IMG/VR virus record: IMGVR_UViG_3300031420_000003 | Location: 184,417-248,416 of that record | DNA from: a virus | Length of the DNA: 64,000 nt | Strand: one strand, 5' to 3' | Shown: positions 1,323 to 64,000 of the stretch, piece after piece | Layout: the number at the start of each line of letters is the position of its first letter | Numbering within the stretch: the stretch's first letter is position 1 | Made by a program: the position numbers and the translations under genes | Notes under the pieces: model-generated | What the model was told of the DNA's origin: nothing | The model's input: the letters and a program-made list of their open reading frames with translations, nothing else | Database searches by the model: none

Positions 1323-2648
1323 CTACCTCACGTAACGGAGGAGCACGTAAACCAGCGGGGTGTAGTAGAACTGCGCCGTCTTCGGCAGCGTCCGTAACAT
1401 CTCCGCCAACAGGATAATTGGCATCGGGGATATCGGTTGCTGTTTGATAAAGAGGTGCAACGCCCACTCAAGCACGTTGGTGTAACTGCCCTTGTAAAAC
1501 GCCTCACTCAGGATATACGGAGTGAGTGTTGGAACACCGAAGGCCGGCAGGGATTCCCCGACGTTTCCACGGTAGTTAATGCTCTCAGGCACAAAGCCTG
1601 CAAAGCCCGGGAAGTTGTACGGGTAGGTGGCATACTTGTTATCGGCCGTGAAGAACAGGGTCGCTTGGAACTTTGACCAGCCGATAGTGTTCATCATCTG
1701 CAACACCCGGAAAGTCTTCACCGAGAAACACGCACAGCGTCGGTTGTAGTCCTCAAGGAACGTTCCGCTCTGGTTGATAATCGCATCCCAGAAAGTTTCG
1801 ATATCGTTCGCCTGCTTCGGCGGGTGCGGATAGATACGGATGTCATGGCCCGGCATCGTCAGCCCAATGGCTCGCACGAACCGTGCCAAGAACACGTCGT
1901 ATACCCGGTACTCATCTTCCGGGAACTTCAGGGTCTGGGTTTCATGGTCGTAGTAGCGTTTGACATACGTCTGCTCGATATCCAAAAGCAAACGTTCCAC
2001 CCGCATGAACTCGTTCCACTCATCCGGCTTTAACAGCGTGTCCTCACCCCACCACGCACGTTCCCGCACGTAGTAATACTCGCGCACGGTACAGGCTTTG
2101 ATAACCAGTGCCATCTGTGGCGTGACTTCATAGAGCATCGTGTACTCAATGTCGTAGGTCGCGATTTTGTTATCGGAGCCACGCACGGAGGAGGTGATGT
2201 TAAAGAAGCCCAGACGCCCGCCATCCATCTCAGCCACAAAGCAGTCGTGCACGTTCGGCGGGATGGAGTTGACAAGCGTTGCGGCACCCGTAATGGTAAA
2301 CGTCCGGTTGTCCGACTCCTGACTGCGCTGTAGGGCGGTGGTAACACGCAGCTCAAGGTTGTTGATTTTCTCAAGCTGCTGGGTTGGGTTATCGACCTTG
2401 GGGTCAAAGATAACTATTGGGTCGTTCTTGCCTTTCAGCAGATGGTAGAAGGTGACTGTCCACGACGAGCCGGTCACGTATTGCAACAGGTGCTGTTTAG
2501 ACACACGCTGCAAATCCATCACCGTGGTACGCAGCGGTTCCGTGACGATATTGGACGCTTCCTTAACCCCGTCCTGTGCTTGTACCAGCTCGGGGGCTGT
2601 GGGTTTGACAGGCTGCCAGTCGGCCCCTGACTTACTCGACTTCAGCAT
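1323..2648 (-). CDS. Virion structural protein (phiKZ-like)
   Basis: 441-aa ORF coupled to neighbours; function from synteny only. Confidence 0.6.
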   Translation of the reverse strand: MLKSSKSGADWQPVKPTAPELVQAQDGVKEASNIVTEPLRTTVMDLQRVSKQHLLQYVTGSSWTVTFYHLLKGKNDPIVIFDPKVDNPTQQLEKINNLELRVTTALQRSQESDNRTFTITGAATLVNSIPPNVHDCFVAEMDGGRLGFFNITSSVRGSDNKIATYDIEYTMLYEVTPQMALVIKACTVREYYYVRERAWWGEDTLLKPDEWNEFMRVERLLLDIEQTYVKRYYDHETQTLKFPEDEYRVYDVFLARFVRAIGLTMPGHDIRIYPHPPKQANDIETFWDAIINQSGTFLEDYNRRCACFSVKTFRVLQMMNTIGWSKFQATLFFTADNKYATYPYNFPGFAGFVPESINYRGNVGESLPAFGVPTLTPYILSEAFYKGSYTNVLEWALHLFIKQQPISPMPIILLAEMLRTLPKTAQFYYTPLVYVLLRYVR

Positions 2649-4134
2649 GCTCTACTCCTTCGATAGTCAGGATGCCGGTGTTAAAGATGGTCAGGTAGTA
2701 ATCCCGGTCTTTGAGTTTGTCACGCGGAATCTTATCAATCACTGATGGGGGAAGACGCGGTAAGTCCCACCACCAATCCGGCGTGTTCCATTCAGGGAAC
2801 AACCACTTGATTAAGACCTCAGCTGCACGCGGATACAGATGCAGCGGATACAAGTCCACGTTACGCCAATCAGACACCACCGTTTCCAACACGAAGTAGT
2901 TCTTGGTGACGTTCTGGCGACGCCGTAACTGGAAGTTACCGTCTTCCCAGTGATACAGCTTCGGCTCGATTAACGCCCCCTCTTCGAAGGCCAGGAAGCG
3001 GAACATCCCGGTCATGCCCGTGCGGTCAATACGGCGACAGTGGTCGATGTACGGCTGCAAGGCATCGTTCCAACGATACGGCAGGTCGGCTGTGTTAAAC
3101 ACCACCGGGTCAAGCATGTTATCTTCATCAAAGGCAACGTCGGTACCAAAGATAGGTAACAGGCTTTCCTTGCACGGATAGTGTAACCGTTGGAACTGTT
3201 CTTTCGGGGCCAGTAGGTAGGGAAGCTGAATCAGTGCCCGTTTTTCGTTGACCCACCACGTCCCGTCGAGGTTCTGCTGTTGCTGGGAACGGCGCACGTA
3301 TTCCTCGTTGCTTACCCACGGCCCGTCGATGTCCGGCCACCAGACATCCGGTAATGGCGTTTGGTTAATAATGTACGGATACGAGACCACCACCTCTTCT
3401 GGCGGCTGGTAAAAGAACTTGATGGTGAAAGCGGCTTCATAGTGGTTTTCATCCTTATCCCACGTTGGGGGTTCAGTTGAATACACAAGCTCCACACGGG
3501 TTGGTGCAAAACGCACCGCCAGTGACTCCTGTCCACCGGCCACGTTCGAGATACGGGTGACTTCTTTACCAAAGTACGCTTTGAGGTACTCGGGGAAGCT
3601 CTCGTGCTTCGGCACACGGGTGTTTGCTGCGATGTAACACGCGTTCAGTAACTGCAGCGCTGTCTTAGGGATAATGTAATAGGCCTCAGACTCCGCCATC
3701 AGGCTGTAGCGGCCCATATCCTGTAAAGCGTTAAGACGGTTCACCCAGCGGTGTAACTCGTCCTCTGATTGATTGTGGCGCGTTAGGGTGACGGTGACGT
3801 CATAGCCACAGGTAGTAGGCGCAGCGTGGACTTGGTCGTCGCTGTTAGCAAAGAACGGGATATGAACGTTCATGCCGATTTGGCGATTGATCCGTGCGTA
3901 CTCGTCGCGTTCTTCAACCACACCAATATAGACACGGTCGGTGCCTGCATAGGAGGCCGTGGTTTCCTCGCCCTCGGTAGACCCGACCTGATGGGTTGTC
4001 TTGAAGCGGTCATCATTGTAGATGATTTCTGCTTTCGCGATTCCCGATTCATTTAACGCACGATGAACAATACCGTCCACGATGGCTTTTCGAATGGTCT
4101 GGTCTAATGAAGGAATCTCAAAATACTGTTGCAT
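2632..4134 (-). CDS. Virion structural protein (phiKZ-like)
   Basis: 500-aa ORF, GAGGAG SD, TATG element about 22 nt upstream; function from synteny. Confidence 0.6.
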   Translation of the reverse strand: MQQYFEIPSLDQTIRKAIVDGIVHRALNESGIAKAEIIYNDDRFKTTHQVGSTEGEETTASYAGTDRVYIGVVEERDEYARINRQIGMNVHIPFFANSDDQVHAAPTTCGYDVTVTLTRHNQSEDELHRWVNRLNALQDMGRYSLMAESEAYYIIPKTALQLLNACYIAANTRVPKHESFPEYLKAYFGKEVTRISNVAGGQESLAVRFAPTRVELVYSTEPPTWDKDENHYEAAFTIKFFYQPPEEVVVSYPYIINQTPLPDVWWPDIDGPWVSNEEYVRRSQQQQNLDGTWWVNEKRALIQLPYLLAPKEQFQRLHYPCKESLLPIFGTDVAFDEDNMLDPVVFNTADLPYRWNDALQPYIDHCRRIDRTGMTGMFRFLAFEEGALIEPKLYHWEDGNFQLRRRQNVTKNYFVLETVVSDWRNVDLYPLHLYPRAAEVLIKWLFPEWNTPDWWWDLPRLPPSVIDKIPRDKLKDRDYYLTIFNTGILTIEGVEHAEVE

Positions 4135-4176
4135 TGGGGTGTCTCCTCATTAGCTCATAAAACTGGCTGGATACGC

Positions 4177-4207
4177 AAAAAAAAAACAGGAGTCCGAAGA
4201 CCCCTGT
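4177..4207 (-). terminator. Rho-independent terminator
   Basis: ACAGGGGTC-TTCG-GACTCCTGT hairpin followed by a long T run on the minus strand. Confidence 0.8.
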
Positions 4208-4211
4208 CTGT

Positions 4212-4832
4212 TTACAGTCCGAACCCGCGGGAAACGTACCGTTTAAACTCCTGTTCACCAACCGTGAAGGTGTCACCCTTCAGTGTCGCCACCACGTCAT
4301 CTTTGATGAGTTGGGTTTTAGCGGCTTCGGCTACTAGCCACAACAACCGCATGTCGTGTTTCACGTCGAACACCTCACCCTGCTGTGGGTGCTCGGTTGT
4401 GGTTACCATCGCCTTCTCAAAGACATAGAAGCCCGTGACCTTAACAGCGTTGTGACCAATGTGCTCTTCGAGCTCTGGAGAGAGCCAGACCTTATAGCCG
4501 TGCAACGTTTGTGAATTTATCACCAGTGACTCGTTACGCATCTTGCGCAGTGTGCCCATGCGGATATCGCTTTCACAGGCAATCAGGACATCGCCGCGTG
4601 TTGCGCCCAGCGGCATCTCAATGTACACCCGCTCGGGTTGAATCTTCTGATACAGTTCCAGCCGTTCTAAGAGCTTCACGACGCGTGCGTTGAGGCTAAG
4701 CTTGCCGATGTTACACCCGCCGTCATATTGGCTGAACTCTTCATTGTCATCGCCGGTTATGTTGAGGTCGATGCCTTCGAACTCAGAGAGGTGTTTAATA
4801 AAGTCTTTACGCTTTAACATTTTCTTAGTCAT
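4212..4832 (-). CDS. Hypothetical protein
   Basis: ORF 4212..4847; probable ATG at 4832 with GGAAGGA SD. Confidence 0.65.
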   Translation of the reverse strand: MTKKMLKRKDFIKHLSEFEGIDLNITGDDNEEFSQYDGGCNIGKLSLNARVVKLLERLELYQKIQPERVYIEMPLGATRGDVLIACESDIRMGTLRKMRNESLVINSQTLHGYKVWLSPELEEHIGHNAVKVTGFYVFEKAMVTTTEHPQQGEVFDVKHDMRLLWLVAEAAKTQLIKDDVVATLKGDTFTVGEQEFKRYVSRGFGL

Positions 4833-4877
4833 GGTCAATCCTTCCAAATAAAAAAGAGGGGACCGAAGTCCCCTGTC

Positions 4878-5315
4878 TTAGTTGTCAACACCCACGAGTA
4901 AAATGTGCGCCAGTTTCGGATAGTGCCAGAGCTGCACTGTCTGACCTTGCTTGCGCCACTTCGTACCCCGTTCGTCCATGAGATACCATTTCTCACCCTT
5001 GCCGTACTCCTCATGTTGGCCTGCGGACACAGACACCAACACACCCGCCTTCACAAAGTCGTATAACCAGATGAACTTGCTTAAGTCCAATGGCACACCA
5101 ACCATGATAGTCGGCCCATTACGGGGGATGGCTAAAGGTTTGCGGGTTTTCCCCTCGAGTATCAGTCGGAACCAGAGTGCGATACACAGGTATTGCGCCT
5201 CGGTGAAATGCACCTGCGGTAGCGAGTTAAAGTGACGGACTAAATCCGTCCCCGTTCCCACTTCAATCATCAGGTGACTCAACGAGGTACCGAGTCCTTC
5301 TTCGGGTCGATACAT
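4878..5315 (-). CDS. Hypothetical protein
   Basis: 145-aa ORF, GAGGA SD, followed by a terminator hairpin near 4855-4880. Confidence 0.65.
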   Translation of the reverse strand: MYRPEEGLGTSLSHLMIEVGTGTDLVRHFNSLPQVHFTEAQYLCIALWFRLILEGKTRKPLAIPRNGPTIMVGVPLDLSKFIWLYDFVKAGVLVSVSAGQHEEYGKGEKWYLMDERGTKWRKQGQTVQLWHYPKLAHILLVGVDN

Positions 5316-5359
5316 GCGGTTGTCCTCTTGGCCAATGACATAGTATCAACCCGCCAGAA

Positions 5360-5659
5360 TCACCCTTCCACTTTTTCTTTAAACGTATCGCGCAGATAGC
5401 CCATGGTTATCTTGCTGCACAGGTTACCCCACGTGAACTGGTGATTACCGTCAACCACCACCACTTCTTCCGGCTTAATGCCCAGCGGCCCCAGCCGGTT
5501 CTCAAGGAACTCCAGCACGGTGATGTCGTGACGGGATGCGCGCTTGTAAACAAATGATTCAATCCAGTCTTCGGGACGGCGACGGATAATAACGATGATG
5601 CCTTCGAGTTCTTGAATGGCGCGCTCAATGGCACCCGGATGCGATACGTTCAGTTCCAT
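5360..5659 (-). CDS. Hypothetical protein
   Basis: 99-aa ORF, AAGGA SD. Confidence 0.6.
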   Translation of the reverse strand: MELNVSHPGAIERAIQELEGIIVIIRRRPEDWIESFVYKRASRHDITVLEFLENRLGPLGIKPEEVVVVDGNHQFTWGNLCSKITMGYLRDTFKEKVEG

Positions 5660-5668
5660 GATTAATCC

Positions 5669-6193
5669 TTACTCAGTGATTTTAGTGTATTCAACGATGG
5701 TGAAGCTGTGGGCGTGTTTATCGTCGGCCTCGACGTGTAACAGGGTACGCTCTTTGTACGCCGTGACATCGAACTGCGGGAAGATGGCATCAGCCCCACC
5801 CTCAATCTCGGTATCAACGTGCGTAATCAAAATGCGGTCAGCGTGCTCGAGGTACATCTCGTAGACCTCAGCCCCGCCAATGATAACCACTTCTTTTTCA
5901 TGCCAGCTATCAGCAATGAGTAAGAGTTCATCCGGCTTGGTGATAATCCCCACACCGTATTCGGTACCCTTCGCAGGCACCACGTTTTTGCTGTCGCGGG
6001 TAATCACCCAGTTACGGCGATTGGGCAGCGGCTTGGAACCAATCGACTCGAAAGTCTTGCGGCCCATCACCACCATCTTGCCCATGGTCTGTTCTTTAAA
6101 CCACTGGAAGTCACGCGGTAAACGCCACGCCAGTTTGTTGTCTTTGCCCAGACCCCAATGGCGGTCCACGGCAGCAATTACGGTTATTTTCAT
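5669..6193 (-). CDS. folA: Dihydrofolate reductase
   Basis: Type I DHFR motifs: IAAVD..WGLGKDNKLAW, D..WFKE.T, VVMGRKTFESIG.KPLPNRRN, IIGGAEVY, GGADAIFP. Confidence 0.95.
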   Translation of the reverse strand: MKITVIAAVDRHWGLGKDNKLAWRLPRDFQWFKEQTMGKMVVMGRKTFESIGSKPLPNRRNWVITRDSKNVVPAKGTEYGVGIITKPDELLLIADSWHEKEVVIIGGAEVYEMYLEHADRILITHVDTEIEGGADAIFPQFDVTAYKERTLLHVEADDKHAHSFTIVEYTKITE

Positions 6194-6532
6194 TTACAGG
6201 TTCCCTAATCCGGCACGCATGGCGCTCAGGAGATTACGACGTTCGATTTTGTGGACTTGCACAGTGTCACTGAAGTCAATGAACTGCGCATAACGCGGTT
6301 CGACCTCAATGCTCAATGCATGGATTTCAATGTGCAGCAGACGACCCGTGCCGTGGGTGCTACGGTGCAGCTTCACGGTGAGTTGACCTTGGAAGTCTTT
6401 ATCAGCGAGCTTCTCAATTGCCTCTCTGACAGATTCAACGTCCAAGTCGTAGTCGATGTCACCGAGTTTGAAAATCAACCCGTGAACGTTATACAAGGAC
6501 TGAGCAGGGAACTCTAATACTGGGCGAGACAT
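6194..6532 (-). CDS. Hypothetical protein
   Basis: ATG at 6532 with AAGGAG SD; abuts the DHFR start. Confidence 0.65.
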   Translation of the reverse strand: MSRPVLEFPAQSLYNVHGLIFKLGDIDYDLDVESVREAIEKLADKDFQGQLTVKLHRSTHGTGRLLHIEIHALSIEVEPRYAQFIDFSDTVQVHKIERRNLLSAMRAGLGNL

Positions 6533-6582
6533 TTGATTACTCCTTACAAAAAAACTAACCCCACCGAAGTGGGGCATGTTGA

Positions 6583-7203
6583 TTAGAATTGAGACTGGAC
6601 GGAGCTCTTACGGTGAATCACCAACTGTGGCAATGTCAACGGTTGAGCAGTAATCAGTCGTTCCTTCGCACTGGACAAATTCGTTACCCGAGCATGGGTG
6701 ATACGTTCAGGCTCGATGGCACCGTTCGCTTCGTCCAACAGATGTTCATTCATCAGACGTTGTTCGATATCCAACGACATCTGCATGTCGGCTTTATCGA
6801 ACGAGAGTTCAGTTACCACGGTCAGATAACCGTCCATGACTTCCGGCACACGGGCAACGTGTTTGCGGTAGAAGTGTTCAAACTTACTGTAGTCACGGCT
6901 GGCGGTTTTGTGCATGTATTCCATACCGGCGGCAACGGCCCACTTGTAGAGTGGCTGTAAGCGCTTGTATGTTTCGAAGTCACACTTCTGGTCCAGTGTG
7001 AAGGTACGGCTGTTGTAGTGGAGGGTAGCGCTCTCCGTGTTGCGAGCGTAGCAGGCTTGTACGAAAGAGGCGATGCCAAGCATAACCGGACGCGGTACAC
7101 GTAATGGTGCTTGATGTTCGAAATGCAACTCAAAGACTTTAGCATCACGCAGGTCTGCGGTGTTGCCCGTTACGTCGATTACAGAGAGCAGGTTATAGTT
7201 CAT
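6583..7203 (-). CDS. Hypothetical protein (probably early)
   Basis: 206-aa ORF, AAGGAG SD, downstream of the conserved promoter motif. Confidence 0.7.
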   Translation of the reverse strand: MNYNLLSVIDVTGNTADLRDAKVFELHFEHQAPLRVPRPVMLGIASFVQACYARNTESATLHYNSRTFTLDQKCDFETYKRLQPLYKWAVAAGMEYMHKTASRDYSKFEHFYRKHVARVPEVMDGYLTVVTELSFDKADMQMSLDIEQRLMNEHLLDEANGAIEPERITHARVTNLSSAKERLITAQPLTLPQLVIHRKSSVQSQF

Positions 7204-7268
7204 GGGTTAAATCTCCTTGCGATTACATAATGGAATAGGTCTCGTGTAAAAAAGGTCATTGTGTTACC

Positions 7269-7289
7269 TCACCTAAATGATATCTATCT
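7269..7289 (-). promoter_or_regulatory. Putative phage RNAP (early) promoter motif
   Basis: AGATAGATATCAT-TTAG-GTGA; one of 8 copies. Confidence 0.7.
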
Positions 7290-7304
7290 CAGATTCGGTC
7301 GAAT

Positions 7305-7336
7305 AAAAGAAAGAATCCCCACTCCGAAGAGTGGGG
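7305..7336 (-). terminator. Rho-independent terminator after head protein pair
   Basis: CCCCACTC-TTCG-GAGTGGGG hairpin then T-rich tail. Confidence 0.8.
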
Positions 7337-7356
7337 TTTCCCGACACTAAAAGGGA

Positions 7357-8628
7357 TTAACCTTTTTCGTGTGCAGCGATACCAGAAGCGATATAGCCGT
7401 TCAGGCCAGCGCTCAGGTTTTTCTGGATCATGGCAATCGCACGCTCTGCAGAAGAGACGCTGGCGTTGATACCAGTGACGCCACGGCGAACCATGCGGAC
7501 TGCACGAGCCAGACCCGGCTTGTCGTCGATTTTAACATCGTCAACACGCTTAACCAGTTTGGTCAGTTCAGCTTCGAACTTAGCACGCGCAGTGTCAACT
7601 TTGCGGTAGTTCTGAACCTGTTTCTCCAGCTCTACGCCCACTTTCTTGTAGAAGGTGTTAGCAGAGGCCAGCTGACCCGGGTTAGGAGTTGGAACAGACG
7701 CTTCGCCTTCAGCTTCAGACGCAACGTACGAAATAACGGTAGTTGCTTCGTCGCCTTCGCCTTCGGTCTTAACGACCATCTTGTTGCCGCCCAGCATCTC
7801 TTCTTCGCCAGTACCATGGTCGCGAACGATAGAGACCAGTTTCTTAGCAGAAGCCAGTGAAGCGGTTTCTGGGTTGGCAGCGCCTTCCAGCGAGCTAACC
7901 ATTTCTTCACCGACCAGAGTCAGTTCAGCCAGCAGGTCAACCAGACTGGTGCAGACTTTCAGCTGCTCATCCAGCTTGGCAGTTTCGTTACCCACGAACT
8001 TGCCACCGACAGACAGTTGCTTAACGAAAGAACCAGAGATGGTGTCTTTCTTCTGCTTGCCCAGTGCGCGGATCTGCGCTTCGTATTTCTTAGCGCGGCC
8101 CTGAATGGACTTGCCGACGTTGCTGAATTTCAGCCAACGATCTTTCAGTTTACGACCCTGCTCTTGCAGCCACTCGAGGATACGCTTCAGGAAACCTTTG
8201 ATATCGGTCCACAGCGATTCACGAGCAACCTGACGACGGTTCGCAGCGCCATAGCTTTCGCGAGCTACAGACTGACGGTTGTCCAGACCCCAACGGCGAC
8301 GAATAGACTCCTGCGCAACGTCCAGTGCTTCCGCAGCGGAGTCAGGCATGTCTTCTTCGGCTTCCATCTTTTCGTCTTCCGGCGTTTCGCTATCCGGATT
8401 GGCAGCATCAGCAGCAGCGTCGACATCGTCCAGCTGTGCATCAGTTTCATCAGCATCGCCTGCCAGTACAGCAGCGTCAGCGTCGTTACCGTCGATAACG
8501 CGGTCATCGTTGGCCAGATCAGCGAGGATACCCTCTACCGACTCAGCTGGCAGTTCCAGACCGTCTGGAACAACGGTACCGGTTCCTTCGATGGACTCAC
8601 GAGCGAGTTTCTGTTGAATAAAGTTCAT
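7357..8628 (-). CDS. Internal head/ejection protein (SPN3US gp53/54, phiKZ gp93-like paralog family)
   Basis: 423 aa; acidic N-terminal propeptide with repeated ARE-S/AQE-S protease sites; clear paralog of the adjacent gene. Confidence 0.75.
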   Translation of the reverse strand: MNFIQQKLARESIEGTGTVVPDGLELPAESVEGILADLANDDRVIDGNDADAAVLAGDADETDAQLDDVDAAADAANPDSETPEDEKMEAEEDMPDSAAEALDVAQESIRRRWGLDNRQSVARESYGAANRRQVARESLWTDIKGFLKRILEWLQEQGRKLKDRWLKFSNVGKSIQGRAKKYEAQIRALGKQKKDTISGSFVKQLSVGGKFVGNETAKLDEQLKVCTSLVDLLAELTLVGEEMVSSLEGAANPETASLASAKKLVSIVRDHGTGEEEMLGGNKMVVKTEGEGDEATTVISYVASEAEGEASVPTPNPGQLASANTFYKKVGVELEKQVQNYRKVDTARAKFEAELTKLVKRVDDVKIDDKPGLARAVRMVRRGVTGINASVSSAERAIAMIQKNLSAGLNGYIASGIAAHEKG

Positions 8629-59137: not shown

Positions 59138-60190
59138 TTACACTTTAAAGAATGTCCGTGCACCCATAACCCACTCCTCTTCGGTGTGGACGGCACGGAG
59201 TTCTTTAGGCACAAACAACATTGGCTTGATAAGCACCGTACCCGGTCCAGAGATGTAGGGCACATCCACAAAGAAAGCCGGCAAGCTTCCTTGTAATGCC
59301 GTCGCCTCAAGTTGTGCCGCGCCGTTAACGAAATGCTCCCCATCAACAATGAGAATCCTCCCGCCCTCCAGATACACACCGGGAATAAACTCATTCGTGC
59401 GAATACCAATGTGGTTTGGATTTTGCATGATGCGAATCACATGGCTACGGAAGGACTGGTCTTTCTGTGGATAGAGTTCGCAGAGCTTGCCGAGGGCGAA
59501 GGCCAAGCGGTGTGAGTCGCAGTGCAGGTACTTAGTAAAGCACAGACGTTCTGGATTGAGGTTCCAGCCATTCTGCAGTGTGTGGTTGCTGTGACACACG
59601 GCCGCCATGGTGAACAGTGTAGCGATGGACTGGTACGCATCCTCGGTATACCGCTCAAGGTTGCGGGGCAGGTAGCCGCTATCAGCATTGATGTCGTACA
59701 CGTCTTGCTTGGCATCCATCTCTGCAATGCGGGTAGCGAGGGGTCCGCGTTTGATGCGCAGATTCTCACCGATGTACTCAAGCTGACGAGGCCCGCCTTC
59801 AAACGCATCGGTTGAGCTGCGCCATAACCCATCACCGAAGTGACGCACGAACTCCAATGACCAAACCGTAGCATGGAGTGTCGGGCTGCGGTACTCCAAG
59901 AACTCATTGTCGGTGAACTGGAAGACGGTACGGCCTTTGGCATAACCGGCGAACTGTAAGGAGATAGCATTGGTACGTTTGTACTGCTGCATGTCCTTGA
60001 CGATGGCGTAGGCTTTCCAGAACTCGAGGTTAGCCCGTGGTAATGCATAGCCTGCCATACCGAACTGACGCGGTAACCAGAGGCGAATATTTCTGGCTTG
60101 CTGGAACGTGTAGCCTAATCCCTGTAAGCCGCTCAGTGCATCAATCTTAGGTGCACCACTGCGGGTATTACTGAAGTGACGATTTTTCAT
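59138..60190 (-). CDS. Protein with C-terminal ParB/Srx-like domain
   Basis: 350 aa; PGVYLEGGRILIVDGEHF..GAAQL..LPAFFVD resembles the ParB-N signature. Confidence 0.55.
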   Translation of the reverse strand: MKNRHFSNTRSGAPKIDALSGLQGLGYTFQQARNIRLWLPRQFGMAGYALPRANLEFWKAYAIVKDMQQYKRTNAISLQFAGYAKGRTVFQFTDNEFLEYRSPTLHATVWSLEFVRHFGDGLWRSSTDAFEGGPRQLEYIGENLRIKRGPLATRIAEMDAKQDVYDINADSGYLPRNLERYTEDAYQSIATLFTMAAVCHSNHTLQNGWNLNPERLCFTKYLHCDSHRLAFALGKLCELYPQKDQSFRSHVIRIMQNPNHIGIRTNEFIPGVYLEGGRILIVDGEHFVNGAAQLEATALQGSLPAFFVDVPYISGPGTVLIKPMLFVPKELRAVHTEEEWVMGARTFFKV

Positions 60191-60238
60191 TTTTTACTGG
60201 CCTCTGTGACAAGTCGATTAAAGTGAATACATCTTCGT

Positions 60239-60259
60239 TCACAGAGATGATATCTATCC
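60239..60259 (-). promoter_or_regulatory. Putative early promoter motif
   Basis: GGATAGATATCAT-CTCT-GTGA. Confidence 0.7.
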
Positions 60260-60261
60260 GA

Positions 60262-60301
60262 AATAAAATAGAGTATTCCCCTCTCCAAAACGGAGAGGGG
60301 G
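60262..60301 (-). terminator. Terminator closing the tRNA/ncRNA transcript
   Basis: CCCCTCTCC-GTTTT-GGAGAGGGG hairpin followed by an AT-rich tail. Confidence 0.65.
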
Positions 60302-60306
60302 TACCC

Positions 60307-60670
60307 TGGTGTGGTCGAAGTCTTTCTAACTACCTGGGCAGTATCCGACGGGTCAGGTTCAGACACTTATTAGCAAGCGCGCTAATGTGGATTGTCGGGT
60401 AGGCTGACACAGCAAGCATCCATGGGGGGAAGCGAACTACCTACCCGACAAACGGGGTTTGCTCGAACACCTTTTAAACCACCGCCAGGCGAGTTAAAGG
60501 AATGGTATCCGAGCAATGGGGAACAGACAAAAGCCCGTAATGGCTCTGGGCGTATGTGCAGTAGAAAAACCTATTCGGCTTCTGTCTGTATTGGGTTTTG
60601 CGCTGAGACGCCTGCACGTGTTAGGTTGAATGAAATTTTTCCGGAATGCCATTCACAGTTATCTCAGAGC
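60307..60670 (-). ncRNA. Putative structured ncRNA A (about 360 nt)
   Basis: No credible ORF; several stems, including perfect 12-bp TTGTCGGGTAGG/CCTACCCGACAA, TTGCTCG/CGAGCAA, ACAGACAAAAGCC/GGCTTCTGTCTGT; minus-strand end reads ...CCACACCA. Confidence 0.5.
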
Positions 60671-60675
60671 AAAGG

Positions 60676-60751
60676 TGGCTGGTGATGCAGGAATCGAACC
60701 TGCGACATATGGATTAACAGTCCACTGTTCTACCGACTGAACTAATCACCA
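60676..60751 (-). tRNA. trnN: tRNA-Asn(GTT)
   Basis: Cloverleaf, anticodon loop CT-GTT-AA, TTCGATT T-loop, encoded CCA. Confidence 0.95.
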
Positions 60752-60756
60752 AGAAA

Positions 60757-60833
60757 TGGGTCAACGGTTATGGGATTCGAACCCACCTAGTCTGTTCGCG
60801 AGCACAGTGCATCACAGTTTTGCTTACCGTTGA
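60757..60833 (-). ncRNA. Aberrant tRNA-like element 1
   Basis: 8-bp acceptor TCAACGGT/ACCGTTGA, T-arm GTGGG-TTCGAAT-CCCAT, CCA end; 4-bp anticodon stem with 8-nt loop GCTCGCGA; non-canonical D arm. Confidence 0.6.
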
Positions 60834-60839
60834 AAATAG

Positions 60840-61112
60840 TGGCCGCTTGCCCCCTAACGACTTAACGTTAGACGACTCATCTGGGATTGCTTTGCCCCAG
60901 ACTATACACCCCGCGCGCCCATTGGTTTCGTCAAGAGGGGATGATCCTTTTAACGTGTGTAGGTGACACCCCTCCGAATCCCACGGAGTTCTAAAGGCTG
61001 CACTTAGCGGTCCTCACCATCTACGCCCGCAGGCTACGGTTAACGACTGATGCTTTTATTGGCTGCCATCCCTCAATCGCGTAACGCCGAAGCGTGCTAG
61101 GGGAAGGTGTCA
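60840..61112 (-). ncRNA. Putative structured ncRNA B (about 270 nt)
   Basis: Terminal pairing CCCCTAGC/GTTAGGGG, internal hairpins ACGC-TTCG-GCGT, CTCCG/CGGAG, TCTGGG/CCCAGA; ends GCGGCCA. Confidence 0.5.
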
Positions 61113-61202
61113 TTGTAGGGTGAACGCTCGGTATCTAAACCAGTTAACCAAATGGGGGACACTCTGCAGGAGGAGACCCATTCAGATTACACGCTCATTG
61201 AT

Positions 61203-61292
61203 TGGCGGAGAATGTTGGATTCGAACCAACGGTACCCTTACGGATACACTCCCTTAGCAGGGGAGCGACTTAAGCCACTCATCCAATTCTCC
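61203..61292 (-). tRNA. trnS: tRNA-Ser(GCT)
   Basis: Cloverleaf with long variable arm, CT-GCT-AA loop, CCA. Confidence 0.95.
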
Positions 61293-61297
61293 AGATA

Positions 61298-61373
61298 TGG
61301 CAGTGCTGATGGGATTTGAACCCACGATTTCCTACGTGACAGGCAGGCGTCTTAACCGCTCGACTACAGCACT
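61298..61373 (-). tRNA. trnD: tRNA-Asp(GTC)
   Basis: Cloverleaf, CT-GTC-AC loop, CCA. Confidence 0.95.
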
Positions 61374-61379
61374 ACTGTT

Positions 61380-61455
61380 TGGCAGGGAAGAGAGGACTCG
61401 AACCTCCAACACCCGGTTTTGGAGACCGGTGCTCTACCAATTGAACTACTTCCCC
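61380..61455 (-). tRNA. trnW: tRNA-Trp(CCA)
   Basis: Cloverleaf, CT-CCA-AA loop, CCA. Confidence 0.95.
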
Positions 61456-61473
61456 AGAATTGCGCATCGCTTG

Positions 61474-61563
61474 CTTGGTGGGGTCAACCACCTCACTAGT
61501 ACACTCCCCGCGAAGAAAGGAATCGCGTAACCGCTAGTAGTGGCGACTAACCACCCCGCAAGG
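61474..61563 (-). ncRNA. Putative small rod-like ncRNA C (about 90 nt)
   Basis: Nested pairing CTTG.GTGGGG/CCCCGCAAG, ACTAG/CTAGT, CGCGA/TCGCG in the tRNA spacer. Confidence 0.4.
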
Positions 61564-61578
61564 TTACGTTCTTGTGTT

Positions 61579-61654
61579 TGGTATTCCCGACGAGATTTGA
61601 ACTCGTGTACCGTCAGTGAAAGTGACGTATCCTAACCAACTAGATGACGGGAAT
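61579..61654 (-). tRNA. trnE: tRNA-Glu(TTC)
   Basis: Cloverleaf, CT-TTC-AC loop, CCA. Confidence 0.93.
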
Positions 61655-61657
61655 ATT

Positions 61658-61732
61658 TGGTACACCCACGGGGATTTGAACCCCGGTTAACTGCTCGAAA
61701 GGCAGCGGTCCTAACCGCTAGACGATGGGTGT
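61658..61732 (-). tRNA. trnE: tRNA-Glu(TTC), second divergent copy
   Basis: Cloverleaf, CT-TTC-GA loop, CCA. Confidence 0.88.
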
Positions 61733-61737
61733 ATAAC

Positions 61738-61823
61738 TGGTGGCACGGGTTGGATTTGAACCAACGAAGCCCGAAGGCGGCAGATTTACAGTCTGCTCTC
61801 GTTAACCGCTTGAGTACCTTGCC
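61738..61823 (-). tRNA. trnY: tRNA-Tyr(GTA)
   Basis: Cloverleaf with variable arm, CT-GTA-AA loop, CCA. Confidence 0.95.
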
Positions 61824-61846
61824 AGAATTCTTTATACATAACAAGA

Positions 61847-61929
61847 GGGTTGTGTTGTGGAATTGAACCACGAAGTGCTTACGTCCGTTTGCCTGCCGTA
61901 AACCCAACTCACGCCAACGTGACACAACC
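61847..61929 (-). ncRNA. Aberrant tRNA-like element 2
   Basis: 8-bp acceptor GGTTGTGT/ACACAACC, T-arm GTGG-TTCAATT-CCAC, hairpin CACG-TTGG-CGTG, 7-bp central stem with 13-nt loop; no encoded CCA. Confidence 0.55.
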
Positions 61930-62028
61930 ATTGCACATATGTACTGAGATAACTTGTTATTTTTGCAACAGTTTATCTAAGCGCACATGTCTTGTACATA
62001 ATACAGTGTAAACCTGTAATTACATTTT

Positions 62029-62104
62029 TGGAGCAGACAGTCAGGTTCGAACTGACGACCCTCTGATTGGAAATCAGATGCTCTACCAACTGAGCTATGC
62101 CTGC
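62029..62104 (-). tRNA. trnG: tRNA-Gly(TCC)
   Basis: Cloverleaf, TT-TCC-AA loop, U73, CCA. Confidence 0.93.
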
Positions 62105-62124
62105 AACATATATACTAACTAAAG

Positions 62125-62706
62125 GTTAAACGGGTGTCGATGGACTTCTTCTTCTGAGCCTGTCCGCGGACAGGTCTTAGCGCCTCCAAGCACCGACCCC
62201 TATTACTTTCAATTCGTGACGTACCGGCCGTTTGAGGTACCGCGCCAACTGCAGCACACAGCTGCTCTTTCGCATCTGGGAACTCAATCCCATCAGTTAT
62301 TTTCAAATTGTGGGTGAAGGTTGCCTATGTCAGCGAGTCAGCTTAATGGGCTGGTGCTTGACCTTCTTCCTTCACGACGTTCGCCGCAGTTGAGGGCTTG
62401 CGCCCTGAAACAGGTTTATGGCGTACAGTCCCACAGCCTGATAACCAATAAGTATCGAGCCTCCAGAAGCGCATGTTGCTAATGACATTCCGAAGAAGGC
62501 CAAGAGCATGATGCACAAAGGCTCTAATCATTTTACGCTCATCGAATAAGTTGTGGACGGACGGGACACCTACCGGATTAGCAGTAGTGCTTTGTGTGTC
62601 CCGGCTGCGCAAGGCTTAAGGGTCTGCTTGCGGTCTTAGCATGCGATAACCGTTATCTCGCTTCCGTCGCGATGGGGATATCAGCCCGCACCGCTGAGTT
62701 GTCAGA
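62125..62706. ncRNA. Putative large structured ncRNA D (about 580 nt)
   Basis: No credible ORF; dense hairpins (CCTGTCC/GGACAGG, GTACC/GGTAC, GCAGC/GCTGC, AGGGC/GCCCT, CGGGACAC/GTGTCCCG, GAGCCT/AGGCTC, TGTGGG/CCCACA). Confidence 0.45.
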
Positions 62707-62709
62707 TAA

Positions 62710-63540
62710 TTACTTCGCTGTGCCGAGGATACGAGACTGATTCTTCAGTAGAATCGTCGACACGGCTTCAAGCAGATCGTCGCTACTGTTGTTGTTGGCA
62801 ACAACAAGCGTGGTCGTACAAGGAACATCGACACTGCCACCGAAGAATGCGCCGTTAACTTTCGCAGACTCTTTGGTGTACACGGATTGACCGTTAGGCA
62901 GTTTGTCGTTAACGTTCCACGTTGACATATCAATCATCTGCAAGCCAGAACCGTCCTGATTAACCGCATCAAGGAACTTGTTGTTCTTGCCCGGAGCCGA
63001 TACCCACAAGAAGGCGTCGTATTCACCGGTAGCCATTTTGGCCAGTGAACGGATACCGCCTTTTGCGTAGGTCTCAGCCTTACCATATTCTTTCACCAGT
63101 TGTTGCAGATACTGCCAGCTGGCATACGAGCCGCTATCAGGTTCGCCAACCGCAATCTTCGCGCCGTTGGTGAGGTCTTCTGCTTTACTGATTTTGCCGT
63201 CTTTCTTCACGGCTACCCAGACGCACTCTTTGGCCAACTGGCCAACGATGTCAACGTTCTGCGCTTCGTTCGGGTGCTTGTTGCGCCAGAACTGGAATGC
63301 ATCTGCCTGCGTGAAGCCAACCTGTGCTTCATTCGCCGCGACTTTGTCGAGGTTATCCAGCGACCCTTTGGACGGGACGACCTGCGACTTGTTACCGAAC
63401 TCGGCCAGAGCACCGGCTAAGTTCACCCCGTAAACGGAGTTGTAGGTTAAACCCTGCTGTCCTGTGGTGATGACCACATTCTCGCCTGCCAGTGCCGAAA
63501 AGCTGAAAAGTGCCAATACTCCAATGAGTAACTTTCTCAT
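62710..63540 (-). CDS. TAXI-family TRAP transporter solute-binding protein
   Basis: Signal peptide (..FSALA); TG...TY, SKGSLDNL, VGFTQAD, KIAVGEPDSGS motifs. Confidence 0.85.
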   Translation of the reverse strand: MRKLLIGVLALFSFSALAGENVVITTGQQGLTYNSVYGVNLAGALAEFGNKSQVVPSKGSLDNLDKVAANEAQVGFTQADAFQFWRNKHPNEAQNVDIVGQLAKECVWVAVKKDGKISKAEDLTNGAKIAVGEPDSGSYASWQYLQQLVKEYGKAETYAKGGIRSLAKMATGEYDAFLWVSAPGKNNKFLDAVNQDGSGLQMIDMSTWNVNDKLPNGQSVYTKESAKVNGAFFGGSVDVPCTTTLVVANNNSSDDLLEAVSTILLKNQSRILGTAK

Positions 63541-63601
63541 GATTGTTGTTAACCTTGTGTTAAGAAAGAAAGCGTGCTAAGGGGAACGTCCCTACCACGT
63601 A

Positions 63602-63772
63602 TCAGGTGCTCTTCCGTTTAGGAATGAGTCGCTTGATGACAGGCCAAGCCAGAACGACGACAAAGCCGATAACGAGAACGATACCGAACAGTGTCATGAT
63701 TCGGCCAACGAAGTGACCGAGCAGCATGAAGAACAATGCCGCCGCGATGTACAACTTGGTCTTCAGTTTCAT
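63602..63772 (-). CDS. Small membrane protein
   Basis: 56 aa MKLKTKLYIAAALFF..., two hydrophobic segments and a basic tail. Confidence 0.55.
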   Translation of the reverse strand: MKLKTKLYIAAALFFMLLGHFVGRIMTLFGIVLVIGFVVVLAWPVIKRLIPKRKST

Positions 63773-63794
63773 TCGAGTCTCGAAAGAATCAAAA

Positions 63795-63869
63795 TGGAGG
63801 AGCAGGGCGGAATTGAACCGCCGTAAAGTGATTTGCAATCACTCGCCTAAGCCACTCGGCCACTGCTCC
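63795..63869 (-). tRNA. trnC: tRNA-Cys(GCA)
   Basis: Cloverleaf, TT-GCA-AA loop, U73, CCA. Confidence 0.93.
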
Positions 63870-64000
63870 AGTGTGGTGGGCCGAAGCCCACCGTTATCTA
63901 GCCTGCACAAAATGACTCATGGACAACGCCCGCCGGTAAGTCGGTACGACCGATACAGGTAACGCTCAGGCGGATGCCTTCTTCGCAGCTACCATCACAG

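What the first reader, a model, noticed from the sequence alone, without database searches (positions are those of the whole stretch)
60307..62706. tRNA array interleaved with several large unannotated structured RNAs: a candidate phage ncRNA system
Seen: in an otherwise gene-dense genome, about 1.4 kb of spacers between tRNAs (60307-60670, 60840-61112, 61474-61563, 62125-62706) lack credible ORFs yet are packed with stems, including long-range closing helices. Two of them end in CCA on the minus strand (60307-60309, 60840-60842), as the flanking tRNAs do. A terminator at about 60280 closes the array. Known: large phage ncRNAs such as GOLLD and ROOL sit in tRNA clusters and could be released by tRNA processing. 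Inference: these are distinct ncRNAs cut from one polycistronic precursor, with possible decoy, scaffold or anti-defence roles. None is recognisable to me as tmRNA, RNase P RNA or a group I intron.
Basis: partly seen in the sequence, partly recalled or inferred. Interest (0 to 1): 0.85.

Follow-up and report, generated by a model that had tools for sequence, protein, structure and literature searches.

The report
Folded RNA genes between phage tRNAs
The gaps between the tRNA genes of this Erwinia giant phage hold several separate, evolutionarily conserved folded RNAs (two kept across at least four phage genera and absent from the RNA-family catalogue) plus one small protein gene, and what these RNAs do is unknown.

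Summary
The window is the end of a 248-kb Wellingtonvirus-like Erwinia jumbo phage. Eight tRNA genes lie on the minus strand at 60676-62104. The gaps are not one RNA system. They hold a row of separate modules.

Two modules are strongly supported. E-RNA (62366-62129, 238 nt) is kept in Wellingtonvirus, Erskinevirus, Seoulvirus and Machinavirus: 95.3% of cells pair, 15 of 42 pairs show compensatory change, and 0 of 500 shuffles reach this. B1 (61112-60960) is a tRNA-shaped RNA with a large insert where the anticodon loop should be: 95.7% paired, 7 of 21 compensatory.

Modules C, B2, D, an upstream leader and the spacer-A hairpins have weaker comparative support.

None matches Rfam 15, here or in 11 relatives.

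Its stop codon sits in an E-RNA hairpin loop.

RNA libraries of an SPN3US-like phage contain that gene plus E-RNA.

Function is untested.

The kind is known (T4 RNAC/RNAD; GOLLD/ROOL near tRNA islands). This scan has noted similar arrays in at least 16 other phage genomes.

The parts
62556..62693 (-). Leader RNA ('Eup'): a multi-helix element between the TAXI/NMT1-like gene and the small ORF.
   Evidence: RNAalifold on 5 sequences (window, Wellington, Kwan, L025, pEa_SNUABM_11) gives 49 predicted pairs, 11 of them with compensatory change. BLAST found it only in Wellingtonvirus-like sequences, plus short pieces in L022 and L020.
62343..62531 (-). Small protein gene: 62 codons plus stop. The model shows an N-terminal helix and a disordered basic tail. 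The stop codon (62345-62343) lies in the loop of E-RNA helix H1.
   Evidence: The frame is kept in 16 of 16 relatives and ends at the same TAA. In the closer pairs, differences fall most on codon position 3 and least on position 2, for example 11/6/17. phrog_26199 matches at E 1.1e-4; there is no Pfam match. Only 5 representative clusters are found among 1.84 billion proteins. AlphaFold2 gives a helix at residues 2-30 and pLDDT below 50 from residue 34.
62129..62366 (-). E-RNA: a 238-nt structured RNA. Helices are H0 (spans the end of the ORF), H1, H3, H4 (conserved UGUGU loop), a variable hairpin H5 with three alternative versions, and a 3' domain H6 with two conserved purine-rich internal-loop strands.
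   Evidence: Alignments A1, A2 and A7. On 20 sequences from 4 genera plus uncultured contigs: 42 pairs, 95.3% of 824 cells paired against 87.1% in shuffles (0 of 500 reach it) and 30-46% when partners are slid; 15 pairs have change on both sides. H0 is a 6-bp helix in 18 of 20 sequences. 50 of the 824 cells are G-U, which fits the minus-strand transcript only (counted). No Rfam match. RNA-library contigs of an SPN3US-like phage cover it.
62029..62104 (-). tRNA-Gly(tcc)
   Evidence: ARAGORN; Rfam tRNA, 70.8 bits.
61930..62028 (-). Two A+T-rich hairpins after tRNA-Gly.
   Evidence: Fold z = -2.94. 97% identical in Wellington and Kwan, 75% in L022. No covariation test was made.
61847..61929 (-). 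tRNA-shaped RNA 'D': 8-bp acceptor stem, canonical-looking T loop, and a 7-bp stem with a conserved 13-nt loop in place of the anticodon arm.
   Evidence: No Rfam tRNA match even at E<=10. ARAGORN calls it only at an 80% threshold, as Cys(gca). L022 keeps the acceptor and the 'anticodon' stems through changes on both sides, and Wellington through G-U changes (alignment A11; read by eye from 3 informative sequences). Absent from pEa_SNUABM_11 and Asesino.
61579..61823 (-). tRNA-Tyr(gta), tRNA-Glu(ttc), tRNA-Glu(ttc)
61456..61578 (-). Module C: a folded spacer RNA between tRNA-Glu and tRNA-Trp.
   Evidence: z = -2.84. 86-88% identical in Wellingtonvirus and about 80% over 108 nt in the Machinavirus phages ChrisDB and pEa_SNUABM_9, where it starts right after tRNA-Met. 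One hairpin is seen in three compensating versions (A9; read by eye).
61203..61455 (-). tRNA-Trp(cca), tRNA-Asp(gtc), tRNA-Ser(gct)
61113..61202 (-). B0: a poorly supported spacer.
   Evidence: z = -1.11. Found only in the near-identical contig L039, in L022 (87%) and in part in pEa_SNUABM_11.
60960..61112 (-). B1: a tRNA-shaped RNA of about 153 nt. It has a 7-bp acceptor stem, a 4-bp D-like stem closing a hairpin, an anticodon-like stem closing a 45-140-nt insert, and an invariant 5-bp T stem with a non-canonical 7-nt loop. The 3' tail is C+CCA in Erskinevirus, Machinavirus and SPAsTU, and CCUA here.
   Evidence: A4 and A8. On 10 sequences: 21 pairs, 95.7% paired against 87.8% in shuffles (0 of 500) and 36-50% slid; 7 pairs have change on both sides. 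In Asesino and SPAsTU it fills the slot between tRNA-Glu and tRNA-Asp exactly. No Rfam match.
60838..60959 (-). B2: a three-hairpin RNA.
   Evidence: Two hairpins are seen in two to three compensating versions among window, Wellington, Kwan and pEa_SNUABM_11 (A6; read by eye). In pEa_SNUABM_11 it sits directly between tRNA-Met and tRNA-Asn. z = -1.95.
60757..60833 (-). tRNA look-alike with an 8-bp acceptor stem, an 8-nt 'anticodon' loop and an encoded CCA.
   Evidence: Rfam tRNA 20.6 bits against a cut-off of 29. ARAGORN calls it only at a relaxed threshold, as Met with an intron. 98.6% identical to an unannotated stretch of Machinavirus pEa_SNUABM_6. Wellington and Kwan carry A instead of C in the T loop.
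60676..60751 (-). tRNA-Asn(gtt)
60301..60675 (-). Spacer A: a chain of hairpin modules after the last tRNA. Whole modules are swapped or missing between close relatives. A 41-nt core at 60654-60614 is identical in all 4 phages.
   Evidence: z = -6.98. Alignment A5 shows the module gain and loss. alifold per module gives 3, 0, 2 and 3 compensatory pairs, from only 4 sequences. BLAST found it in Wellingtonvirus only.
60278..60300 (-). Closing 9-bp G+C hairpin: terminator-like, but with no adjacent U tract.
   Evidence: Sequence. Pairing is kept in pEa_SNUABM_11. Not listed by the terminator scan.
60246..60259 (-). Copy of the phage's recurrent promoter-like motif. It starts the next transcription unit (the 350-codon gene at 60190-59138).
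   Evidence: 23 matches with up to 2 mismatches in the 248-kb genome, 21 of them on the minus strand. None lies inside 60260-64000.

Best explanation
The stretch is the tRNA operon region at one end of a nucleus-forming, SPN3US-like Erwinia jumbo phage. The gaps between the tRNA genes are filled with separate cassettes. These are one small protein gene and at least six independently conserved folded RNAs, each with its own distribution among related phages. They are gained, lost and shuffled like the tRNA genes themselves.

Shown:
- The modules exist.
- E-RNA and B1 are kept by compensatory change across four genera.
- They fold on the tRNA strand.
- They belong to no catalogued RNA family.
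- The small gene is conserved as a reading frame.

Inferred mechanism:
- The modules are transcribed together with the tRNAs. They are set free when host RNase P and the 3'-trimming enzymes cut out the neighbouring tRNAs. Their closed helices make them stable.
- The tRNA-shaped modules (B1, D and the look-alike at 60833-60757) are themselves RNase P-type substrates that cannot decode. They most likely act as tRNA mimics that occupy tRNA-binding proteins, such as host tRNA nucleases or tRNA-modifying and processing enzymes.
- E-RNA is made as the 3' part of the small-gene transcript. It most likely works through its two invariant purine-rich loops, either as a partner of a protein (possibly the small basic protein encoded just upstream) or as a processing and stability element.
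For: Identity and context: 91.7-92.4% identity to Erwinia phages Wellington and Kwan. The record is 248,416 bp with terminal repeats, and all nine tRNA genes lie in this region.

E-RNA:
- Conserved at 70-87% in 57 phage records of Wellingtonvirus, Erskinevirus, Seoulvirus and Machinavirus, and mostly unannotated there.
- 15 of 42 pairs are compensatory and 95.3% of cells pair, against 30-46% when partners are slid.
- One G-U pair is kept in 17 of 20 sequences.
- Its motif occurs in 7 real jumbo-phage metagenome contigs out of 8 hits, and in 0 of 32.2 million contigs of bacterial and archaeal genomes.

B1:
- 7 of 21 pairs are compensatory.
- It occupies a tRNA slot exactly in Asesino and SPAsTU.
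- C+CCA is encoded in most members.

Other modules: C, B2, D and the leader have compensating hairpin versions.

Catalogues and copies: no Rfam family matches at E<=10 here or at E<=5 in 11 relatives. There are no paralogous copies elsewhere in the genome.

Expression, in an SPN3US-like relative (one study, 4 RNA runs):
- Contigs cover the small gene and the first two thirds of E-RNA in 4 of 4 runs.
- In 3 of 4 runs the contig stops at L021 2674-2677, inside the 5' loop strand of H6. In 2 of these it runs on into letters that I recall as a sequencing adapter.
- One run bridges the place at lower depth.

Transcription units: the recurrent promoter-like motif is absent inside the array and present just after its closing hairpin.
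Against: - No discrete transcript, end or processing step has been shown for this phage. The only RNA data are assembled contigs from a relative, and these cannot establish ends, strand or level (tool caveat).
- Folding energy of E-RNA and B1 alone is no better than shuffled sequence (z = -0.25 and -0.23), and spacer B as a whole is worse than the shuffles.
- Support for C, B2, D, the leader and spacer A rests on 4-6 sequences, some nearly identical, and partly on reading alignments by eye.
- Wellington, Kwan and L013 carry a different sequence in place of the conserved 3' domain of E-RNA (and the 'other: 2' rows). That domain is therefore replaceable.
- In Machinavirus and SPN3US, E-RNA is not followed by a tRNA. 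Its fixed neighbour is the small gene, not the tRNA array.
- The tRNA look-alike at 60833-60757 has lost a universal T-loop base in Wellington and Kwan, as a decaying gene would.
- No function, partner or phenotype was tested. The decoy and partner roles are inference.
Confidence: 0.55

Rival explanations
1. E-RNA and the upstream leader are cis-acting parts of the small-gene mRNA, not trans-acting RNAs. The leader controls translation at the ribosome-binding site. E-RNA is a 3' structure that stops exonucleases or the phage RNA polymerase.
For: E-RNA always follows the small gene (16 of 16), and the stop codon lies in its first hairpin loop. The 3' strand of the leader lies about 25 nt before the start codon. 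RNA contigs in a relative join the gene and E-RNA and stop inside E-RNA in 3 of 4 runs.
Against: E-RNA is far better conserved than the gene it follows. BLAST detects E-RNA across genera where the gene is no longer detectable at the DNA level. It has long invariant unpaired strands, which a mere stabiliser would not need. The contig stop lies inside the covarying 3' domain, not after it.
Confidence: 0.25
2. Most gap sequence is debris: decayed tRNA genes, recombination scars and hairpins that only space the tRNAs for processing, without functions of their own.
For: Modules are gained and lost between close relatives. The look-alike at 60833-60757 scores below the tRNA cut-off and carries a T-loop change in Wellington and Kwan. 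B0 is barely conserved. Energy z-scores are weak for B0, B1, B2 and the look-alikes.
Against: E-RNA and B1 are kept over four genera with compensatory change and invariant loops. The D element keeps its stems through changes on both sides in L022. A 41-nt core of spacer A is identical in phages that are otherwise 74-83% alike there.
Confidence: 0.12
3. The whole 605-nt gap 62709-62105 is one ornate non-coding RNA of the GOLLD/ROOL sort, and the 62-codon frame is not translated.
For: Structured elements lie on both sides of the frame. The whole gap folds better than shuffles (z = -2.44). Helix H0 reaches into the frame. Other first-stage notes of this scan read relatives this way.
Against: The frame is open in 16 of 16 sequences despite 25-95% protein identity, with conserved W, W, G and R positions and a codon-position bias. 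Public gene callers list it, and it matches a PHROG. There is no match to the GOLLD or ROOL models.
Confidence: 0.05
4. The conserved hairpins act in DNA (a replication origin or packaging signal near the genome end), not in RNA.
For: The region lies within about 4 kb of the end of a record with terminal repeats.
Against: 50 of the 824 pair cells of E-RNA are G-U, including one kept in 17 of 20 sequences. These would be A-C mismatches on the other strand. Wobble-only changes are also seen in spacer A and the D element. The region is present in RNA libraries, with gaps that contaminating DNA would not leave.
Confidence: 0.03

Closest known systems
Phage T4 small RNAs RNAC and RNAD (species 1 and 2)
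   Same: Small non-tRNA RNAs encoded in a phage tRNA region and expressed in infection, with roles still unknown. Passages read: PMC3014915 and PMC9697503.
   Different: No sequence relation was tested. The modules here are more numerous and some are larger (238 nt). They occur in a nucleus-forming jumbo phage lineage, and one is tied to a small protein gene.
GOLLD and ROOL RNAs
   Same: Structured RNAs of unknown function in phages and prophages, often near tRNA islands (passages of bioRxiv 10.1101/2024.12.08.627333).
   Different: No match to any Rfam model, at the gathering score or up to E = 10. The modules are 80-240 nt, not 500-800 nt, and are several separate units rather than one giant RNA.
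tRNA-like domain of tmRNA
   Same: B1 has the same topology. The 5' and 3' ends form a 7-bp acceptor stem next to a T arm, an encoded CCA follows, and a large insert replaces the anticodon arm.
   Different: ARAGORN and Rfam do not call it. The third acceptor pair is A-U or G-C, not the G-U needed for alanine charging (the requirement is recalled). It is 127-230 nt long and no tag reading frame was recognised.
YrlA-type bacterial and phage Y RNAs
   Same: Non-coding RNAs with a tRNA-like module, some of them in phages. PMC7824862 mentions a Ro/TROVE protein with a tRNA-like partner RNA in some jumbo phages (passage).
   Different: The best YrlA score here is 18.5 bits against a cut-off of 69, and it falls on tRNA-Asn. 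The genome has no TROVE gene. In B1 the ends form the acceptor stem, whereas in Y RNAs they form the Ro-binding stem (recalled).
Dual-function small RNAs that also encode a peptide (for example SgrS/SgrT, RNAIII/hld; recalled, not read here)
   Same: One transcript would carry a small reading frame and a conserved structured RNA domain.
   Different: No base-pairing target, regulator role or peptide is known here. The resemblance is only in layout.

Membership tests
GOLLD / ROOL (Rfam) | Match to the family covariance model | tested here: not met
   cmscan against all 4227 Rfam 15 families found only tRNAs at the gathering score. Nothing fell in the gaps up to E = 10 apart from chance-level hits. 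Nothing overlapped E-RNA or B1 in 11 relatives.
GOLLD / ROOL (Rfam) | Location in phages near tRNA islands | tested here: met
   the paper passage.
tmRNA | Recognised by ARAGORN or by the Rfam tmRNA models | tested here: not met
   None at default settings. At a 70% threshold ARAGORN gives only permuted calls that overlap true tRNAs. The only Rfam tmRNA hit is tmRNA_permuted at 14.9 bits against a cut-off of 47, and it lies outside the array.
tmRNA | G3-U70 pair in the acceptor stem (alanine identity; recalled) | tested here: not met
   The third acceptor pair of B1 is A-U in 8 sequences and G-C in 2 of 10 (columns 7/227).
Canonical tRNA (for B1, D and the look-alike at 60833-60757) | Rfam RF00005 score of 29 bits or more, and a 7-nt anticodon loop | tested here: not met
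   The look-alike scores 20.6 bits and has an 8-nt loop. B1 and D have no hit at E<=10. B1 has a 45-140-nt insert and D a 13-nt loop.
YrlA / Y RNA with Ro60 | Match to RF02553, and a TROVE (Ro) gene in the genome | tested here: not met
   18.5 bits against a cut-off of 69. PF05731 was found in 0 of 1 genome, while the controls were positive.
T4 RNAC/RNAD-type stable RNAs of tRNA regions | Encoded within a phage tRNA gene region on the tRNA strand | tested here: met
   (the G-U pairs fix the strand).
T4 RNAC/RNAD-type stable RNAs of tRNA regions | Accumulates as a discrete stable RNA in infection | tested here: inconclusive
   The only data are assembled RNA-library contigs of an SPN3US-like relative, and only for E-RNA. 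There are no data for this phage or for B1.
Intrinsic (Rho-independent) terminator, for the hairpin at 60300-60278 | G+C-rich stem directly followed by a U tract | tested here: not met
   The stem is present, but the scan does not list it: the T-rich run starts about 10 nt after the stem. The signals used by the phage's own polymerases are unknown.
Self-cleaving ribozyme classes in Rfam (considered because of the contig stop inside E-RNA) | Match to a ribozyme covariance model | tested here: not met
   No such hit. Cleavage itself is not testable with these tools.

The most novel reading that the evidence does not exclude
E-RNA, together with the small basic protein encoded immediately upstream, is a new phage ribonucleoprotein or a self-processing RNA. 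The tRNA-shaped RNAs (B1, D) are a dedicated set of uncharged tRNA mimics with which SPN3US-like nucleus-forming phages neutralise host tRNA-cutting defences or take over tRNA-processing enzymes. That would be an RNA-based counter-defence layer carried in the tRNA operon.
Probability: 0.12. Interest if true: 0.85.

Novelty: new variant of a known kind. Interest (0 to 1): 0.55.

Why it matters
SPN3US and its Erwinia relatives are laboratory models for nucleus-forming jumbo phages and candidates for fire-blight and Salmonella biocontrol. Their genome annotations leave these stretches blank or fill them with doubtful small ORFs.

Two RNA families emerge with clear borders, secondary structures and a four-genus alignment. 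They can be added to RNA catalogues and tested directly in SPN3US, which has genetic tools.

If the tRNA-shaped RNAs prove to be decoys or competitors for tRNA-binding proteins, they would extend the current view that phage tRNAs answer host tRNA-targeting immunity.

E-RNA, with a stop codon in its first loop and a possible internal processing site, is a tractable case of a coding and structured dual transcript in a phage.

If they prove inert, the result still corrects the annotation.

Tried and rejected
Classification attempts that gave nothing:
- Rfam at the gathering score, at E<=10 on the region and at E<=5 on 11 relatives.
- ARAGORN at relaxed thresholds. It gave only low-threshold calls, several on the wrong strand or overlapping true tRNAs, and I do not use them as evidence beyond noting the two look-alikes.
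- By eye I considered RNase P RNA (a purine-rich strand ending in GUCC), SRP RNA, group II intron domain V and a YrlA-type Y RNA. None has any model match, so I dropped them.
- A possible pseudoknot between the conserved CACA stretch and the UGUGU loop of H4 could not be tested, because both sides are nearly invariant.

Other searches that led nowhere:
- TATATAT near tRNA-Gly is not a recurrent promoter: there are 2 sites on each strand in the genome.
- The sigma-70-like site at 62140-62112 is one of 3 found where shuffles give 3.0. It is not evidence.
- Pattern scans of IMG/VR returned 13 and 6 loci. Four of the 13 (L016, L018, L019, L023) did not match the E-RNA profile and are chance hits. 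One of the 8 metagenome hits (L033) is also chance.
- Self-BLAST of the array against the whole genome found no paralogues.

The small protein gave little: no Pfam family, no solved relative, and a single-helix model with mean pLDDT 59.7. I did not run a fold search on it.

In the RNA-library lay, the part of the stretch without cover in three runs (about L021 2678-2782) is reported only as a hole. The tool warns that a hole proves nothing.

Literature searches found nothing on these RNAs: 'SPN3US' + 'non-coding RNA', 'tRNA-like' + 'jumbo phage', 'tRNA array/phage/structured RNA/covariation', and the decoy search. PMC10690425 catalogues 8495 candidate structured RNAs of 29-151 nt from IMG/VR (passages).

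Full report
WHAT THE DNA IS.
Megablast of 60100-62800 finds Erwinia phages Wellington and Kwan, covering 90% and 85% of the query at 91.7% and 92.4% identity, and then other SPN3US-like jumbo phages. The window is bases 184417-248416 of a 248,416-bp virus record with terminal repeats. All nine tRNA genes of the genome lie at this end. ARAGORN places eight of them on the minus strand between 60676 and 62104.

THE OBSERVATION.
The gaps are real and total 1869 nt: 60191-60675, 60752-61202, 61456-61578, 61824-62028 and 62105-62709.

Rfam 15 finds only the tRNAs at its gathering scores. With loose filters up to E = 10 it finds nothing in the gaps except a sub-threshold tRNA match at 60762-60831 and chance-level hits.

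Folding energy against shuffled sequence is uneven:
- Spacer A is outstanding (z = -6.98).
- C and the hairpins after tRNA-Gly are moderate (-2.84 and -2.94).
- The last gap as a whole is moderate (-2.44).
- Spacer B as a whole is no better than chance (+0.56).

The 'terminator' is a 9-bp G+C hairpin at 60300-60278. It is kept in pEa_SNUABM_11 with a changed sequence, but the terminator scan does not list it because no T run follows directly.

Eighteen bases further on lies a copy of a promoter-like motif. This motif occurs 23 times in the genome with up to 2 mismatches, 21 of them on the minus strand, and never inside 60260-64000. I found the motif by following another first-stage note.

THE LAST GAP HOLDS THREE THINGS, NOT ONE.

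(1) A small gene.
A 62-codon reading frame lies at 62531-62343. In 16 of 16 related sequences a frame of 55-69 codons ends at the same TAA. It carries conserved W, W, G and R positions. In the closer pairs, differences fall most on the third codon position and least on the second. Asesino gp9 and Machina gp9 are its annotated counterparts. It matches phrog_26199 weakly and no Pfam family. A profile search of 1.84 billion representative proteins finds only five clusters. The model is one helix followed by a disordered tail.

(2) A leader RNA.
Upstream of the gene, 62693-62556 folds into a multi-helix leader. 11 of its 49 predicted pairs show compensatory change in five Wellingtonvirus-like sequences.

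(3) E-RNA.
Downstream lies E-RNA, 62366-62129.

Conservation. Sensitive BLAST finds its core in 57 phage records of four genera at 70-87% identity, mostly unannotated. The neighbouring gene is no longer detectable at the DNA level in most of these.

Structure. On a 20-sequence alignment with a structure I derived from RNAalifold:
- 95.3% of 824 cells form standard pairs, against 87.1% after shuffling (0 of 500 shuffles reach it) and 30-46% when partners are slid by 1-3 columns.
- 15 of 42 pairs change on both sides, against 0-5 in the slid controls.
- A further 6-bp helix, H0, reaches into the last codons of the small gene in 18 of 20 sequences and comes in three compensating versions.
- The stop codon lies in the loop of H1.
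- Fifty cells are G-U, one pair in 17 of 20 sequences, so the fold belongs to the minus-strand transcript.
- The middle hairpin H5 exists in three unrelated versions.
- Wellington, Kwan and L013 carry a different 3' domain with a similar closing helix.
- The window is thus a mosaic: its 3' domain is that of pEa_SNUABM_11, while its H5 hairpin is that of Asesino.

Distribution. Exact-pattern scans find E-RNA only in jumbo-phage contigs. Nine of the 13 loci from the first IMG/VR scan matched the E-RNA profile in full, and a tenth locus from the second scan holds only its 3' end at a cut. Seven of 8 metagenome hits are real. The pattern occurs in none of 32.2 million contigs of bacterial and archaeal genomes.

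Energy. Its folding energy alone is unremarkable (z = -0.25).

EXPRESSION OF E-RNA IN A RELATIVE.
A run search with the SPN3US copy (locus L021) found four runs recorded as RNA from one study. They hold a phage 95-99% alike. Their assembled contigs cover the small gene and the first two thirds of E-RNA in all four runs.

In three runs the contig stops at L021 2674-2677. This place lies within the conserved 5' loop strand of the 3' domain. In two of those runs the contig continues into letters that I recall as a sequencing adapter. Cover resumes about 100-170 nt later. The fourth, deeper run bridges the place at lower depth.

Contigs cannot establish ends or strand, and a hole proves nothing. 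I take this only as a hint of a frequent RNA end inside E-RNA, and as evidence that the region is present in RNA libraries.

SPACER B HOLDS AT LEAST THREE UNITS.

B1 (61112-60960) has a cloverleaf-like layout:
- a 7-bp acceptor stem formed by the two ends;
- a 4-bp D-like stem that appears in at least six compensating versions;
- an anticodon-like stem that closes an insert of 45-140 nt;
- an invariant 5-bp T stem with a 7-nt loop that lacks the usual tRNA loop sequence.

On 10 sequences, 95.7% of cells pair against 87.8% shuffled (0 of 500) and 36-50% slid, and 7 of 21 pairs change on both sides.

A discriminator C plus CCA is encoded in the Erskinevirus, Machinavirus and SPAsTU copies. The window has CCUA.

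In Asesino and SPAsTU, B1 fills the slot between tRNA-Glu and tRNA-Asp to within a few bases. This is what one expects of a unit released by tRNA processing.

It is not tmRNA.

B2 (60959-60838) has hairpins in two or three compensating versions among four phages. In pEa_SNUABM_11 it lies directly between tRNA-Met and tRNA-Asn.

The tRNA look-alike at 60833-60757 scores 20.6 bits. It has an 8-bp acceptor stem and an 8-nt loop. It is 98.6% identical to a stretch of a Machinavirus phage, yet it carries a T-loop change in Wellington and Kwan. It could be functional or decaying.

THE OTHER GAPS.
- Module C is about 80% conserved in two Machinavirus phages, right after a tRNA, and has a compensating hairpin.
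- The D element (61929-61847) is a second tRNA-shaped RNA with an 8-bp acceptor stem and a conserved 13-nt loop. The uncultured contig L022 keeps its stems through double changes.
- Spacer A is a chain of hairpins found only in Wellingtonvirus. Whole hairpin modules are swapped or absent between close relatives, around a 41-nt core that is identical in all four phages. Compensatory support is thin because only four sequences exist.
- Nothing in the array has a second copy in the genome, and the genome has no Ro/TROVE gene.

HOW IT MOST LIKELY WORKS.
Shown: the modules, their folds, their strand, their distribution and the small gene.

Inferred: they are transcribed with the tRNAs, since there is no internal copy of the recurrent promoter motif and the closing hairpin and next promoter lie at 60300-60246. 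They are freed when RNase P and the 3'-trimming enzymes excise the tRNAs. The tRNA-shaped ones cannot decode, so they would act as mimics for tRNA-binding proteins. E-RNA is tied to the small gene rather than to the tRNAs, because in Machinavirus and SPN3US no tRNA follows it directly. It probably acts through its invariant loops, or serves as a processing and stability element of that transcript. I put 0.55 on this composite reading. Most of the doubt lies in the functional part.

COMPARISON WITH WHAT IS KNOWN.
The closest known cases are T4 RNAC and RNAD. [quoted passage not shown] GOLLD and ROOL are encoded 'often near tRNA islands' (bioRxiv 10.1101/2024.12.08.627333, passages).

The modules here are not members of any Rfam family. 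My four literature searches found no description of them. A 2023 catalogue of 8495 short candidate RNAs from IMG/VR (PMC10690425, passages) may contain pieces of them, but I could not see its supplements.

This scan has already noted the same kind of array in at least 16 other phage genomes, and has first-stage notes on look-alike stretches in two other genomes. The phenomenon is therefore recurrent. What is new here is two well-delimited RNA families in a laboratory-tractable phage group.

VERDICT.
I class it as a new variant of a known kind. Interest is moderate (0.55), because function remains unknown and the general phenomenon is already on record.

Noticed in passing
window 60246-60259, and 22 other sites in the 248-kb genome (for example window 7289, 34779, 38479, 39870, 47990, 56916): A recurrent promoter-like motif, about 14 nt with a conserved GTG a few bases downstream and a T-rich stretch upstream. 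It gives 23 matches with up to 2 mismatches, 21 of them on the minus strand. It is probably a promoter class of the phage's own RNA polymerase.
   Followed up: partly
window 62129-62200, compared with L001, L007 and L013: The 3' domain of E-RNA in this phage is the version of pEa_SNUABM_11, although the flanks are about 92% identical to Wellington and Kwan, which carry a different 3' domain. The variable hairpin H5 also exists in three unrelated versions, and the window shares its version with Asesino. This indicates module-level recombination inside one RNA gene.
   Followed up: partly
L012 (SPFM4) and L010 (Huxley), within the 3' loop strand of E-RNA: Two phages from different genera each have one extra AGA unit in the purine-rich AGAAGAAGAAG strand. 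Triplet slippage is tolerated in an otherwise invariant loop.
   Followed up: no
L003 1803-1923 (Asesino) and L005 4376-4472 (Machina): GenBank annotates over-long 'tRNA-Ile(aat)' genes of 121 and 97 nt near tRNA-Asn. Rfam scores the Machina one at 31.4 bits. They may be further tRNA-shaped RNAs with inserts.
   Followed up: no
L039 (metagenome contig): A metagenome contig is 99-100% identical to the window across the array. It may be the same phage sampled again.
   Followed up: no
window 62710-63540: The gene upstream of the array is a periplasmic-binding-protein-like (NMT1/TAXI family) protein (Pfam PF16868, E 1e-12; phrog_6856). This is an odd gene for a phage. It is conserved in Wellingtonvirus, Erskinevirus and Machinavirus, and no annotated counterpart stands at this position in SPN3US.
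   Followed up: no
L021 1854-2123 (SPN3US-like, RNA run X12): Contig depth over the start of the SPN3US_0002 region is very high, up to about 150,000, compared with about 2,000-8,000 further on. Contig depth is a poor measure, so this is only a pointer to a very abundant early RNA.
   Followed up: no
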